A stretch of 64,000 bases of DNA from Girardia tigrina (lineage: Eukaryota): contig MQRK01216387.1 of the NCBI GenBank assembly GCA_001938485.1, positions 79,846 to 143,845 of the forward strand. Direction: 5' to 3'. A program made the position numbers. Positions 24,401 to 29,057 of this stretch are shown in pieces (within the stretch, counting starts at the first letter, position 1; every line of letters begins with the position of its first letter).

Positions 24401-27400
24401 AAAAATTTTCTACTGGTAAATGCAATATTTACGGAAACAAATTCCCAGTTCATCAAATTGAATCTAATTATACACAATTTGGAATTCCATTTCTTGATAT
24501 GGGCCCTGCGTCTTTGCAGTCGGTTCGGCAGGAGTTGTGGATAAATCTTTATCCTCATTATTCCAGTATCACCACATGCATTACCGATTTCTTTAAATTA
24601 TTGTGTCAAAAAACAAATTGACTAATTAGTGCCACATGCTGGCCTAAATCATAAAAAATAATAAAATATAAAAATAAATAATTTTAATAATTAAAATTTT
24701 AATATATTCTAATATATATATATTTTTTATAAGTGAAAATAAGGTATAAATACCCTCTAAAAAAATTTAAAGATCACACAAAAAAATCAAATAACAATAT
24801 AAAACTTCAAACAAGTTTTCAATCAAATTTTTATTCAGCCTCAATTATTATATCAAAGATCAATGTACAAATTTTGTCATTATCAAATATAAATTTTTAT
24901 AATATTTGTTATTTATCTCAATTGCAATAAATTTAACAGCATCAATTATTGAGCTGGCTTCGCGCTACGAACAAGTAACGCAACCTTCGATTTTAGTTGA
25001 TTCAATTCACAACAATATATTTTCTTTGAACATAATTATTCAAACGACAATTCAGTTATAAATTTACAAACCACCAACATTTTTATTTGTAAGTGGACAG
25101 TTTTGTTTAAATTTATTATTTTCAAAAATTTATCATGGAAAAAAAATTATTTTGGAAAATTTTACTGATTATTTTGATTTTAATGAAATAAAATATTTTA
25201 AAAAAGTGAAAGAGATTAGTTTTAGTTTATGTTTGAGTCGAATAAATAAGGAAAAAAGAAACATAATAAAGTAATCAATACACGATAAAACGTGGTTATA
25301 TAATAAGCCCTTTTTATAAATCTGATTATTATCACTTCTAAGTTACGTTGATAATAGGTTATATTATATTTTGAAAGGTATAAGGTACGAAGTGGTAAAA
25401 ATGTATTTTTTGTTTTAATTTGAAGCTTTAACTTGTGTTATTTGCATGGATAGTTTCAAGAAAAACCCAAATAAAAGATTTTTTTTAAAAATTATTTGTT
25501 AAAAAAGTTTTCAATTAGGAAATTTAATTTTCGATCTAATTTATTTCTTTGATTTATAATTTATTGATTTTGCACCATTGTTTTCCGAATTAATGAAAAC
25601 ATATTAGCCTTCAGAAAAATTTACAAAATTCCATTAATTTTTCATATTCTTCTTAATCTTCTTGATCAATAAATTTTCAAGAGAGTTCAATTACTCAAGT
25701 GGATTTATATCATTTGGAATCAATTTTTTTCTCAAAGTTATCTTTTTAAATTAAATTAAAATATTTTTTGAGAGAAAACAGAGCTATAGATTTTTAGTTG
25801 TTTTTTTATATTTAATTGGGCGATATTTATTCTGTCTAGAATTATTTATAATTTATATTTGGTTATGTACGTTTGGAAAATTGAGGTTTGAAGTAAAACT
25901 ATTAGTTTTGTTAATTAATAAACTTTTGCCGTTTAACTGATTTTTTTCGGGTGATGAAATTTGGGACTGATTTTTGATTTTATCTCACTTTTTTCTCATT
26001 TTCTTTCATATTTGCATTAAGAATTGATACATCTTTTAATTAAAAATTTTAACTACATGATTCATCTAAAGTGAAGTTTCAAGAGAAAGTTCGTCGTTAT
26101 ATCAGTTAATTAACGTATTGTGTCTTAAAATCAGGCAAGAATCTCATAAAAATCAAGAAAAAATCTTTTAAAATTGAAGGATTATTTACCATATGGACCA
26201 GCACAACTAGTCTTACTTGTTTTAATCTTATAGCCAGTATGAAGAAACATATAAAAGACTTTATTGAAACCAAAGGTGATGTTACACATTACTAACTGCT
26301 GTTTATAAAAACATATAAGCTATCCGATGACTTTTGAACCAATAAAAATTGTTTTCAGGTTGAAATAAATCTTTTATTATTTAGAGATTTCAAGTTTTTT
26401 TGTTAAATTTCAATTATTCAATTGCAATTTAACTTTAATTAAATTGGTGTTCTTTGAATAATATGTAATGCGGTTACCCCGCAGTTGTTTTTGAAGATTA
26501 ATAAAAAAAATGAAAATTGCTAGATTTTCGAGTTTCTTTATATCAATCAAGATGAAATTGAAAATATCCCAAAAATTTGGTGCATCAACTGATCCCGATT
26601 GTCTTATATGTAACCGAAATACAATGTAAACATGTTGAATTGAGGGATGAGACACCAAATAGGGGGAATTTCCTCCACGTATTGAGAGGTAGATTGGTAA
26701 AACTCTCCAAAAAACATCAAGAGAATGAAATACAGCCCTCATCAGCGCCAAAAATGATGGTTGTTACATTTAAATCGGGAAGATGAACCAATACAATCCA
26801 AATATATTAACCCATTAACGCCGAACGGAAACATTCGTGCCCATCTAATAAAAATGGCTGTAAAAGTAAAGACATTGCATTTAGCTATGTTTCGTTGATA
26901 AGGTGTGTACTCTGAAGGTTCAGAACACATACGGAACATGTTTTGTTTCTCTGTCACCAGGCATGCATGCGCAGTAGCCGGCTGACCTTGACCAAGAAAG
27001 GAGTGTATGTAACATGGAAAAATTCATATTACATAATTCTCGGCATTAATGGGTTAATTATTAAACTGGATTGAAATTATATAGAAGTTTTTATTTTATA
27101 CAAAGTTCATATTTTATACTCATATATTTGAAAAACTGATTAAAAAATCAAGTTTCTGGTGACTTTTGGGCTAGGGTAGTATATATATTTCATAATATTT
27201 AATGTAGTGACTATTATTATTATAATCTATTTACAAAAAAACAATTAAAATCAGTATCAATATTTATAAATAATAAAATATATTTAAATTTGTATATGTT
27301 TTTTTATATACACAAATATCGATACTGATATTTATAAAAACAAGATTAATAAACAAATTGTTTTAATGATTAAAAATAAAACAATAATTCAAATTCGTCA

Positions 27401-29057
27401 GGGTTATTTTTTGCTTTTATCGAGTAACATAGTTTTATTTGTAAATTCATTGGCCCAAATAATTGGAATTTGATTGTTGAGAATTATTTCTATTTCGAGA
27501 TTTATTTCGTGAAATGAAAATTGCTAGATTTTCGAGTTTCTTTATATCAATCAAGATGAAATTGAAAATATCCCGTCGGAGGGATTGAGACTAATGAGAG
27601 ATTATGTAAAAATATTTATAAATTTAAATATATGATTATTTATAAATATTGATATTGATTTTAATTGTTTTTTTGCAATTAGATTAATCTAATACATTTT
27701 TGACTAGTCAATACATTAAACATGGCGATATATATATATATATATATATATTAAGGTGTTTCCTTTTTTCAACTTCCAGGAGTTTCAAAGCATTTGATAT
27801 GAACTTTTTATAAAGAGAATAAATCTGTAATACAATTATTCTGTAATTAAAAAAAAGTTCAAAAAAATATATACTTATATTGTAATATAATAAAACATTT
27901 TTTCCTTTTGCAAAGAAATGTTAACTTCCGGGAACTCTGGTTAAAAAAAACTCCGGTGAAGATTGTTAAAAAGATTAGAATTGAATGGGAAAGTTCAAGA
28001 TATCCTTGAAACTCCTTTTTTAAACAGCTTATGTAATTAACAATAAAAATAACATAATAATATATTTTATATATTATAATGTAACAAAGCTTGCAAACGA
28101 AAAAGCTTGGTATCACGTAGAAAAAGAATTTTTAAGTTTGAGTAGAAAAAGTAAATAATCTATTTAAAGTTAATTTTTTTATTTAGTAGTAGAAGGATTT
28201 TTATAACTGTAAATTCTTTTTATATGCTTCGGGGATCATTATTTTAAATATTAGTTTTTATGTTCCTTTAAGGGGCATTTTTTGAATATTTATCTTTTTT
28301 CAACTATTTCCGTTTTTATTAATTGAATTTGAAAACGTATTTCTTTTTGAGTCAACAATAATTAAAATTACTATAAATATTTTTTAAAAATTTAAAAAAT
28401 TTCAAAATTCAAAACTTCACTATTCATTAGAATATGCAATGTATTTATAAAATATTAAAAGGACGTAATTTGGATATTTACACTTGATGTTATTCTTCCA
28501 CAAAGTCATCTATATTACTGTTTAAACTCATTTTGACCCAAGTAATTAATTTCAAATAATATACCGCATACTTCGAAATTTGAAATTCGAATTTATAGAT
28601 ATGTTTAAATGATGCTTTATATTTATATCTAAAATAACCAACATAAAAAAACTAGAAATCTGAGAGATATTGCCATGTACTTTATATAGGACAATGTGAT
28701 TTTATGAGCGTTTATACTCATCAGTATCAGTATAAAATTTAGAACGACATTTAATGGGTGTACTTTACATAATACAGTTGGTCAAAATGGGTTAGACTAT
28801 CCGTTCTCTTTTATAATAAATATTGTATTCTTAATTAACACGTCAAACAATAAAAAGAAATCTATTTTAAATAATCTCCGTGAAAAGAAATACAGAGAAA
28901 TATCAAACTCGTACAAAACAAATGAAATTTTACTTTTATATTGTAATTTTAGTTAGAATTCAACTTGGTGAAAGTTTTAAGGAATAAGATAATTTTTTTG
29001 ATAACCGAGAAAGACTTCTTTTATTTGTGTTGTGACGTACATAGTCATGTATATAAT

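What the first reader, a model, noticed from the sequence alone, without database searches (positions are those of the whole stretch)
27181..27730. Pack-type capture: inverted-repeat element carrying the DDB1 N-terminus
Seen: ~120-bp imperfect inverted arms between TA runs enclose a segment translating to the first beta-strands of DDB1 (NLNLIV..EIY.V..EGLR). Known: host-gene capture by long-TIR elements (Pack-MULEs) is well described in plants and much less so in animals; DDB1 is the CUL4 adaptor and usually single-copy. Inference: a non-autonomous TIR family is dispersing a DDB1 fragment, and foldback transcripts could yield DDB1-matching small RNAs.
Basis: partly seen in the sequence, partly recalled or inferred. 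Interest (0 to 1): 0.7.

Follow-up and report, generated by a model that had tools for sequence, protein, structure and literature searches.

The report
Decayed miniature transposon, not DDB1 capture
This is an old, worn-down miniature transposon with long inverted ends, and its supposed DDB1 gene fragment is most likely a chance reading of the reverse strand of transposon DNA, so the finding is ordinary.

Summary
The inverted arms are real: a 133-column alignment at 81%, E 2e-29. The RNA fold has z -8.84, and 0 of 100 shuffles fold as well. All three arm copies in the window start at the same base with unrelated flanks. This bounds a 515-nt non-coding element at 27202-27716, with TA on both sides.

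The DDB1 reading is not supported. The quoted letters lie in two + frames, separated by a stop and a 63-nt insert. No search returned DDB1: Pfam, PDB, two protein word searches and an exhaustive HMMER scan.

A second, one-armed copy lies at 32873-33199 on the minus strand. It abuts a decayed mariner-like transposase on the + strand. The "DDB1-like" frame there is antisense to the transposase end and its 3' non-coding tail.

Best reading: an internal-deletion (MITE-type) derivative of a mariner-like element. The only demonstrable captured DNA is the 63-nt stretch 27512-27574, a perfect copy of 26508-26570 about 1 kb upstream. It fits templated gap filling.

In the predicted fold, hairpin small RNAs would come from the arms, not the "DDB1" loop. 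A genome-wide copy count could not be done.

The parts
27202..27716 (.). Copy 1: complete non-autonomous inverted-repeat element of 515 nt. This is the finding.
   Evidence: The family boundary is sharp and falls at the same base in three arm copies, with unrelated flanks. TA lies immediately outside both ends. No Pfam match was found for any stop-to-stop piece of 40 aa or more inside it.
27202..27301 (+). Left arm of copy 1. It corresponds to the 3' terminal arm if the element is read in the orientation of the transposase remnant of copy 2.
   Evidence: Ungapped identity to the right arm is 88 of 100 columns and to the copy-2 arm 82 of 95. GC is 0.12.
27608..27716 (-). Right arm of copy 1, the inverted copy of the left arm. 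It carries a 9-nt extra stretch near the terminus.
   Evidence: In the fold, 89 of 100 left-arm bases pair with it, including one run of 41 uninterrupted pairs.
27302..27601 (.). Interior of copy 1, shared with copy 2.
   Evidence: The stretch 27202-27511 against 33199-32900 has 252 identical of 296 ungapped columns. After the insert, 27576-27601 against 32898-32873 has 21 of 26 identical, and 1 of 500 shuffles reaches that score.
27512..27574 (+). A 63-nt foreign stretch (filler) nested in the interior. It is absent from copy 2.
   Evidence: It is 100% identical to 26508-26570, E 1e-27. No further identical base lies on either side. Copy 2 has no counterpart.
26508..26570 (+). Donor (parental) copy of the 63-nt filler, same strand, 1004 nt upstream.
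   Evidence: The surrounding 117-aa minus-strand ORF has no Pfam match and no homologue.
27728..27751 (.). (AT)12 microsatellite, 11 nt beyond the right end of the element. A shorter TA run lies at 27180-27188, 13 nt before the left end.
   Evidence: TRF; sequence.
32873..33199 (-). Copy 2 of the family: one arm plus the interior. No second arm is present.
   Evidence: 80.0% identity over 315 columns to copy 1, E 2e-74. The terminus is the same. No inverted partner was found in 31100-33500, nor in 31081-32000 or 31600-31950 beyond chance.
31948..32858 (+). Decayed mariner-like transposase reading, contiguous with copy 2. It is broken by at least two changes of frame and at least two in-frame stops. 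Its end is extrapolated.
   Evidence: HTH_48, E 0.0044. HTH_Tnp_Tc3_2, E 0.017. tblastn with the window's own mariner piece gives 28% over 106 columns, E 2.5e-5. In PDB, 4 of 5 hits are Mos1 transposase, E 0.011-0.021, aligned to Mos1 residues 259-292 of 345. GC of 32680-32869 is 0.474 against 0.285 for the window.

Best explanation
The locus is an old, inactive miniature inverted-repeat element (MITE-type, 515 nt, 27202-27716).

It most likely arose by internal deletion from a mariner-like transposon. It keeps both terminal arms (about 100-110 nt each) and about 300 nt of the 3' non-coding tail, and has lost the transposase. A longer relative 5.5 kb away (copy 2) still has the same arm and tail joined to a decayed mariner-like transposase reading on the opposite strand.

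The 'DDB1' letters are a chance reading of the antisense strand of that AT-rich tail. In copy 2 the reading also runs antisense through the end of the transposase. They are not a captured host gene.

Long after the element had decayed, a break inside it was mended by copying 63 nt from a site 1 kb upstream (templated gap filling). This is the only foreign DNA shown to be in it.

If the element is transcribed, the arms would form a long imperfect hairpin, and any small RNAs from it would carry arm sequence.

Shown: the arms, the sharp shared terminus, the second copy, the transposase remnant next to it, the 63-nt perfect duplicate, and the negative DDB1 searches.

Inferred: the derivation from that mariner-like element, the direction and mechanism of the 63-nt copy, and any transcription.
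For: Arms and hairpin.

Three arm copies begin at the same base with unrelated flanks, and all three pairs are about equally diverged (85-88% ungapped), as expected for an old transposon end.

TA lies outside both ends of copy 1, in a TTTA|...|TAAA arrangement. This is what a TA duplication in TTTAAA would give.

Transposase remnant beside copy 2: three colinear signals on the + strand in the order expected for a mariner transposase. They are HTH_48 at 31948-32079 (E 0.0044), HTH_Tnp_Tc3_2 at 32058-32204 (E 0.017), and the C-terminal catalytic part. That part matches the window's own mariner piece at E 2.5e-5, and 4 of 5 PDB hits are Mos1 transposase at residues 259-292 of 345. Extrapolation puts the end of the reading near 32858. 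Copy 1/copy 2 homology runs from 32873 to the terminus at 33199.

GC rises from 0.12 in the arm to 0.474 in 32680-32869.

DDB1 was not returned by any of these searches:
- Pfam: 0 of 390 ORFs and pieces of the window matched a DDB1-type domain, and 0 of 4 pieces of the reading matched anything at E<=10.
- PDB: 0 hits at E<=10 for two pieces and two profiles, and 0 at E<=1 for the 90-aa piece.
- Word-indexed protein search, longer proteins: 23 candidates, none at E<=10; no candidate at all.
- Exhaustive HMMER over 1.84 billion representatives: one hit, a protein with 8 F5/8 type C repeats, not DDB1.

Filler: 63 of 63 identical to a site 1004 nt upstream, while the element itself differs from its relative at about 1 position in 5.

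Known precedents. Mariner-to-MITE miniaturisation is described by Yang et al. 2013 (PMC3814204, abstract read). Gap filling from donors less than 5 kb away, with microhomology at the breakpoints, in animal TIR elements is described by Tan et al. 2021 (PMC8277862, sections 8 and 14 read).
Against: - The transposase signals are individually weak. Both Pfam hits are below their gathering scores, and the Mos1 E-values are only 0.011-0.021. The last 43-aa + strand piece (32780-32908) has no PDB or Pfam hit.
- No 5' arm or any other inverted partner is detectable upstream of the remnant; scores are at shuffle level (78, 15 and 106 of 200 shuffles; 101, 71 and 64 of 200). The arm could therefore merely abut the remnant.
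- The arms do not resemble the terminal repeat of the other mariner in the window, 42399-43651.
- The single end of copy 2 is flanked by GC, not TA.
- A 3' tail of about 340 nt is long for a mariner (recalled).
- Only two copies were seen, 5.5 kb apart and in opposite orientation.
- The ESM Atlas list for the minus-strand ORF is beta-propeller flavoured and includes a CPSF_A cluster at rank 11 (score 0.78). All scores are 0.81 or less, which the tool calls leads only.
- From my own recollection, the letter pattern does look like the start of DDB1-type propellers. I could not compare it with a DDB1 sequence directly, because no tool returned one.
Confidence: 0.6

Rival explanations
1. The element is a non-autonomous inverted-repeat element of some other or unknown superfamily. 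Copy 2 is a solo, truncated end that lies next to an unrelated dead mariner by chance. The DDB1 letters are still a chance reading.
For: No 5' arm accompanies the transposase remnant. The arms are unlike the terminal repeat of the other mariner. Copy 2 lacks a TA flank. The window is crowded with transposon remains, so chance adjacency is plausible.
Against: Copy 2 has no second arm of its own either. The shared sequence stops about 15 nt from the extrapolated end of the transposase reading, in the right orientation for a 3' end. Copy 1 has TA at both ends.
Confidence: 0.25
2. One reading: a Pack-type element that captured the first coding part of the host DDB1 gene and spreads it.
For: The quoted letters are present in pieces in copy 1 and more fully in copy 2. 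The interior is shared by both copies, so it travels with the arm. The ESM Atlas lists beta-propeller families, including CPSF_A at 0.78 (leads only). The AlphaFold model of the 90-aa ORF is all beta, but its pLDDT is 50.5. My recollection of DDB1's start agrees with the pattern.
Against: No search returned DDB1. The reading needs two frames in each copy. Its downstream half in copy 2 is antisense to a mariner-like transposase end. The codons involved are those an 80% A+T sequence gives readily (GC 0.196). The paper search for 'DDB1' with 'Pack-MULE' found 0 papers. 'DDB1' occurs 0 times in the main text and in the 11 held supplement files of Tan et al. 2021.
Confidence: 0.05
3. No transposition at all: a local inverted duplication or palindrome made by replication template switching in AT-rich DNA produced both the arms and the second copy.
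For: Only two copies were seen, 5.5 kb apart and in opposite orientation. Copy 2 shows no target duplication. The left arm also contains an internal hairpin, 27244-27286 against 27293-27335.
Against: Three arm copies end at exactly the same base with unrelated flanks. All pairs are about equally diverged. Copy 1 has TA on both sides.
Confidence: 0.07

Closest known systems
Stowaway-like MITEs made by internal deletion of a Tc1/mariner element (Ozma giving Gnome, Elf and Goblin in the yellow fever mosquito; Yang et al. 2013, PMC3814204, abstract read)
   Same: It is short (515 nt), non-coding and AT-rich, with terminal inverted repeats and TA at both ends. Its interior matches a subterminal part of a transposase-bearing relative.
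   Different: The arms are about 100-110 nt, much longer than typical Stowaway ends (recalled). The relative is itself dead and lacks a detectable 5' end. Only two copies were seen. Microhomology at the deletion junction could not be examined because the 5' part of the relative is missing.
Animal Pack-TIRs made by transposition-independent gap filling (Tan et al. 2021, PMC8277862; outline, sections 8 and 14, passages and a supplement word search seen)
   Same: Foreign DNA sits inside a TIR element. It was copied from the same chromosome less than 5 kb away. At most 1 nt at each junction could belong to either partner. It arrived long after the element was inserted.
   Different: The filler is 63 nt, below that study's cut-off of more than 100 bp. 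The donor is not a recognisable gene. Hence this is a sub-threshold, nascent case rather than a member by their criteria.
Pack-MULEs of plants and the Ssk-FB4 family of Drosophila (as described in Tan et al. 2021, passages seen)
   Same: Long inverted arms enclose non-transposase sequence.
   Different: Those have 9-10-nt target duplications and arms of hundreds of nt. Here only TA is shared by the flanks, and no host gene fragment could be shown.
Hairpin-RNA (endo-siRNA) loci formed by inverted repeats in insects (recalled, no paper read)
   Same: The predicted hairpin is long and imperfect, with a 41-pair uninterrupted run.
   Different: No expression or small-RNA data are available here. 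The stem is transposon arm, so any products would match the transposon family, not a host gene.

Membership tests
Pack-TIR (criteria of Tan et al. 2021, Methods) | Internal sequence flanked by two TIRs of the same element | tested here: met
   The two arms of copy 1 share the same terminus and 88 of 100 ungapped columns.
Pack-TIR (criteria of Tan et al. 2021, Methods) | [quoted passage not shown] | tested here: not met
   The only demonstrably foreign stretch is 63 nt, 27512-27574. The rest of the interior is shared with copy 2 and belongs to the family.
Pack-TIR (criteria of Tan et al. 2021, Methods) | A unique parental copy at 90% identity or more, of similar length | tested here: inconclusive
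   Within the window the filler has one parent at 100% identity and the same length.
Pack-TIR (criteria of Tan et al. 2021, Methods) | Parental copy has no transposon within 100 bp | tested here: inconclusive
   The nearest recognised element is the TTAA-flanked miniature element starting at 26806, 236 nt away. The donor's own surroundings have no Pfam match or homologue, but they cannot be checked against a repeat library.
Pack-MULE / Mutator-like | Target-site duplication of 9-11 nt | tested here: not met
   The 15-nt flanks of copy 1 share only the terminal TA as a direct repeat. The nearby TA runs lie 11-13 nt outside the family boundary.
DDB1-derived fragment | Significant sequence similarity to DDB1 or its domains | tested here: not met
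   DDB1 was not returned. That the PDB holds DDB1, and that DDB1 carries the MMS1_N and CPSF_A Pfam domains, is recalled. Short decayed pieces (29-90 aa) limit sensitivity. No direct pairwise comparison was possible, because no DDB1 sequence was returned.
DDB1-derived fragment | The reading lies on DNA not otherwise explained | tested here: not met
   In copy 2 the downstream half of the reading is antisense to a mariner-like transposase end. The rest is antisense to its 3' tail.
Tc1/mariner-derived MITE | Terminal inverted repeats, small size and no coding capacity | tested here: met
   The element is 515 nt with arms as above. Its longest stop-to-stop piece is 61 aa, and no piece has a Pfam match.
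Tc1/mariner-derived MITE | TA target-site duplication | tested here: inconclusive
   TA is present at 2 of 2 ends of copy 1 and 0 of 1 end of copy 2. In DNA that is 80% A+T, a TA match is weak evidence. No empty site is available.
Tc1/mariner-derived MITE | Ends and subterminal sequence shared with a transposase-bearing element | tested here: inconclusive
   Copy 2's arm and tail are contiguous with a mariner-like remnant. No 5' arm was found there, and the transposase signals are weak.
Tc1/mariner-derived MITE | Many dispersed copies | not testable with these tools
   Two copies are in the window.
Foldback (FB) elements | Arms built of tandem subrepeats, hundreds of nt or more | tested here: not met
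   TRF finds only weak 10-24-nt periodicities of 2-3 copies in arms of about 100 nt.

The most novel reading that the evidence does not exclude
The interior shared by both copies really descends from the first coding part of the host's DDB1 gene. It would have been captured before the two copies diverged and since decayed beyond detection by database search. A miniature transposon family in an animal would then be scattering a piece of an essential, usually single-copy gene. The overlap with the transposase end in copy 2 would be coincidental.
Probability: 0.05. Interest if true: 0.5.

Novelty: new member of a known kind. Interest (0 to 1): 0.12.

Why it matters
It matters little as biology. 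It adds one more decayed miniature transposon in a transposon-rich, AT-rich genome.

Two small points are worth keeping. First, it is a clear warning that antisense or off-frame readings of AT-rich transposon DNA can imitate the start of a familiar protein closely enough to mislead a reader. Second, the 63-nt perfect copy from 1 kb upstream is a tidy, very young example of templated gap filling inside a dead TIR element. It falls just below the size at which such events have been catalogued in animals.

Tried and rejected
1. A native DDB1 gene in the window. Pfam scans covered 18 of the 31 ORFs of 90 aa or more. The 13 left out comprised 11 spanning N runs and 2 later covered as pieces. They also covered 121 of 121 stop-to-stop pieces of 40 aa or more in 20-36 kb, 109 of 109 pieces of 45 aa or more before 20 kb, and 142 of 162 pieces after 36 kb. 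In one search, 20 pieces of 45-46 aa were dropped to fit the limit. Pieces containing N were excluded throughout. No DDB1-type domain was found.

2. Structure route. The AlphaFold model of the 90-aa ORF had pLDDT 50.5 and pTM 0.29. That is too poor for a fold search, so none was run.

3. The single exhaustive-search hit, P0001. It is a repeat protein whose 8 copies of a short motif add up to the score. Rejected as chance.

4. Extra arm-like matches at 5458-5520 and 37215-37375. They lack the terminus and are only AT-rich similarity. Rejected.

5. One large 6-kb element bounded by copy 1 and copy 2. The outer flanks share no duplication, and no transposase lies between in the right place. Rejected.

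6. Rfam: nothing at gathering score in the window. One sub-threshold hit (MAT2A_C, E 0.25) lies outside the element.

7. The bacterial-type promoter and terminator scan is irrelevant here and was at chance level.

8. The donor region as a gene: no Pfam match and no homologue.

9. A possible splice acceptor upstream of the reading was noticed in both copies. It was not pursued.
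Full report
SETTING. The window is AT-rich DNA: 28.5% GC overall, and 16-40% in 2-kb bins. It has 16 runs of N, which I left untouched. It carries many transposon remains, listed below. Nothing in it was taken for human. It reads like an insect-type genome, but I did not try to name the source.

THE OBSERVATION: ARMS. The inverted arms are real.
- The repeat finder reports 27215-27301 against 27608-27694 (87 nt, 80% complementary) and 27180-27213 against 27705-27738 (34 nt, 82%).
- blastn joins them into a 133-column alignment at 81.2%, E 2.4e-29.
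- With the same search over the whole window, only 6 inverted pairs less than 3 kb apart reach E<=1e-8 once TA microsatellites are set aside. This is one of them.
- As RNA, 27202-27716 folds at -134.5 kcal/mol against -82.1 +/- 5.9 for 100 dinucleotide shuffles, z -8.84, and none folds as well.
- An (AT)12 run lies at 27728-27751, and a short TA run lies at 27180-27188.

THE OBSERVATION: DDB1 LETTERS. NWNLIV (from 27461) and EIYFV (from 27497) are in one frame, which then meets a stop. EGLR (from 27579) is in another frame. Between them lies a foreign 63-nt stretch. The exact hexamer NLNLIV is not in the finding's coordinates. It occurs in the second copy, on the minus strand from 32951.

A SECOND COPY AND THE TRUE BOUNDS. 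blastn of the finding against the window found a relative at 32898-33199 in the opposite orientation, 80.0% over 315 columns, E 2e-74. Alignment of the three arm copies shows that all begin at the same base, with the terminus ATGTA(G/T)TGACTA, and that their flanks are unrelated. This sets copy 1 at 27202-27716.

Ungapped identities over about 100 columns are 88 of 100 (left against right arm of copy 1), 82 of 95 (left arm against copy 2) and 79 of 93 (right arm against copy 2). The three arms are equally old.

TA lies just outside both ends of copy 1, arranged as TTTA|element|TAAA. The single end of copy 2 is preceded by GC. No direct repeat longer than TA flanks copy 1, so a Mutator-type 9-11-nt duplication is absent. 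Copy 2 has no second arm. Two weaker arm-like matches elsewhere lack the terminus and are only AT-rich similarity.

THE 63-NT STRETCH. Positions 27512-27574 are 63 of 63 identical to 26508-26570, on the same strand 1004 nt upstream, E 1e-27. No identical base lies beyond either edge. Copy 2 has nothing there.
- To its left, copy 1 and copy 2 match at 252 of 296 ungapped columns.
- To its right, 27576-27601 matches 32898-32873 at 21 of 26, and 1 of 500 shuffles reaches that score.
- The stretch is therefore an insertion into copy 1, and it is far younger than the element: no differences, where about 1 in 5 would be expected at the element's own divergence.
- By comparison with copy 2, at most one base at each edge could belong to either partner.
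- The donor's surroundings have no Pfam match and no homologue.

This fits what Tan et al. 2021 describe for single-copy Pack-TIRs of animals: gap filling without transposition, donors mostly less than 5 kb away, and short microhomology (sections 8 and 14 read). Their cut-off, however, is more than 100 bp.

IS THE READING DDB1? No tool says so.
- Pfam found no DDB1-type domain in 390 ORFs and pieces covering the window (what was dropped is listed under Tried and rejected).
- Pfam found nothing at E<=10 for the four pieces of the reading in both copies.
- PDB searches gave 0 hits at E<=10 for two copy-2 pieces and for profiles of both aligned piece pairs. They gave 0 at E<=1 for the 90-aa piece. 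A different frame gave one irrelevant hit at E 0.55.
- The word-indexed protein search among longer proteins gave 23 candidates, none at E<=10, and then no candidate at all.
- The exhaustive HMMER scan of 1.84 billion representatives gave one hit, P0001. This protein has 8 F5/8 type C repeats, and a short motif is counted eight times.
- The ESM Atlas gave only leads (best score 0.81). The list is beta-propeller flavoured, with a CPSF_A cluster at rank 11 and score 0.78.
- An AlphaFold model of the 90-aa ORF was all beta but poor (pLDDT 50.5), so I ran no fold search.

Limits. The pieces are short (29-90 aa). HMMER's filters hide matches weaker than roughly E 1-10. No DDB1 sequence came back, so no direct pairwise test was possible. 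That the PDB holds DDB1 and which Pfam domains it carries are recalled. My own memory of DDB1 agrees that the pattern looks similar, which is a lead and not a test. Pieces were searched one at a time and never joined.

WHAT THE READING SITS ON. Beyond the shared part, copy 2 runs into DNA of 47% GC. On the + strand this region carries, in the order expected for a mariner transposase:
- HTH_48 at 31948-32079, E 0.0044;
- HTH_Tnp_Tc3_2 at 32058-32204, E 0.017;
- a C-terminal catalytic part. It matches the window's own mariner piece (residues 24-127 to 32567-32836, 28% of 106 columns, E 2.5e-5). In the PDB, 4 of 5 hits are Mos1 transposase, E 0.011-0.021, aligned to Mos1 residues 259-292 of 345.

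Extrapolating the remaining residues puts the end of the reading near 32858. The remnant is broken by at least two changes of frame and at least two in-frame stops. These are lower bounds, because its middle third was not resolved.

The homology between the two copies covers 32873-33199. This is the stretch from just past the transposase end to the terminus. Hence the minus-strand ORF that looks DDB1-like in copy 2 is antisense to the transposase end and its 3' tail. The letters in copy 1 are antisense to the tail alone.

MECHANISM PROPOSED. A mariner-like element with long terminal arms lost nearly all its interior. That left two arms and about 300 nt of 3' tail. This is the usual birth of a MITE, as in Ozma giving Gnome, Elf and Goblin (Yang et al. 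2013, abstract read). The copy decayed, and its arms are now 81-88% alike. Much later, a break in its interior was filled by copying 63 nt from 1 kb upstream.

Rough confidences:
- non-autonomous TIR element: 0.9;
- not a DDB1 capture: 0.9;
- mariner derivation: 0.55;
- templated filler rather than an artefact: 0.7.

AGAINST THE MARINER DERIVATION.
- No 5' arm or any other inverted partner lies upstream of the remnant; scores are at shuffle level.
- The arms are unlike the terminal repeat of the other mariner at 42399-43651, and the two remnants share no DNA similarity.
- The last 43-aa + piece has no hit.
- Copy 2 lacks TA.
- All transposase signals are weak.

SMALL RNAs. In the predicted fold, 89 of 100 left-arm bases pair with the right arm, including one run of 41 pairs. 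None of the 130 positions carrying the quoted letters pairs with an arm, while 79 of them pair locally. A foldback transcript would therefore give arm-derived, transposon-matching small RNAs, not ones matching the interior. No expression data were available. Rfam has no family here.

LITERATURE. The search for 'Pack-TIR' found 3 papers. The search for 'DDB1' with 'Pack-MULE' found 0. 'DDB1' occurs 0 times in the main text of Tan et al. 2021 and in the 11 supplement files held as text. These searches cover only the held library. I therefore claim no more than that I found no report of a DDB1 capture there.

VERDICT. This is an ordinary, decayed miniature transposon. The DDB1 capture is not supported. 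A small templated filler is the only capture shown. A genome-wide copy count, a comparison with the species' own DDB1, and read-level and expression checks remain open.

Noticed in passing
window 26806-27058: A miniature element of about 245 nt with 19-nt inverted ends (95% complementary) that include TTAA followed by CCC on each side. This is the look of a piggyBac-type MITE with a TTAA duplication. It lies 145 nt left of the finding.
   Followed up: partly
window 40093-41701 and 57101-58695: Two copies of a 1.6-kb element with long inverted ends (204 nt at 87%, and 185 nt at 97%) that start TA|CAGGGTGACGC. They hold ORFs of up to 254 aa with only a weak DUF4817 helix-turn-helix hit. This is probably a Tc1/mariner-type family with long ends, and the second copy looks young.
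   Followed up: partly
window 42399-43651: A mariner element of 1.25 kb with 33-nt terminal repeats (27 of 33 columns identical) and a Transposase_1 hit at E 1.7e-22. Its reading is broken.
   Followed up: partly
window 62977-63498 (- strand): A 174-aa open piece with a sub-threshold DUF7041 match (E 3e-4, 21.6 bits against a cut-off of 28), in the GC-richest part of the window. As I recall, that domain occurs in gag-like proteins of retrotransposons. This may be the virus-like stretch the operators mention. It is described only and was not pursued.
   Followed up: no
window 20524-20697 (+), 39421-39684 (-), 37868-38104 (-), 34970-35125 (-): Further transposon remains: two DDE_1 fragments (E 2e-7, 7e-6), a DUF6570 fragment (E 7e-7; I recall it as Helitron-associated), and a Mos1-type HTH_48 (E 4e-8).
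   Followed up: no
window 2358-2757, 13299-13930, 60770-61143: Three more short inverted-repeat pairs (47-59 nt arms, 88-90%) enclosing 300-600 nt. They are probably other MITE families.
   Followed up: no
window 6006-7004 (+): A 333-aa ORF with a bromodomain (E 6e-10), interrupted by a short N run. It is the only clear host-gene signal found in the window.
   Followed up: no
window 26510-26629 (+): The donor of the 63-nt filler starts a 39-codon ATG ORF. Its end has a Cys-x2-Cys spacing that recalls the zinc-binding tail of reverse-transcriptase ORFs (recalled). No Pfam hit or homologue supports this.
   Followed up: partly
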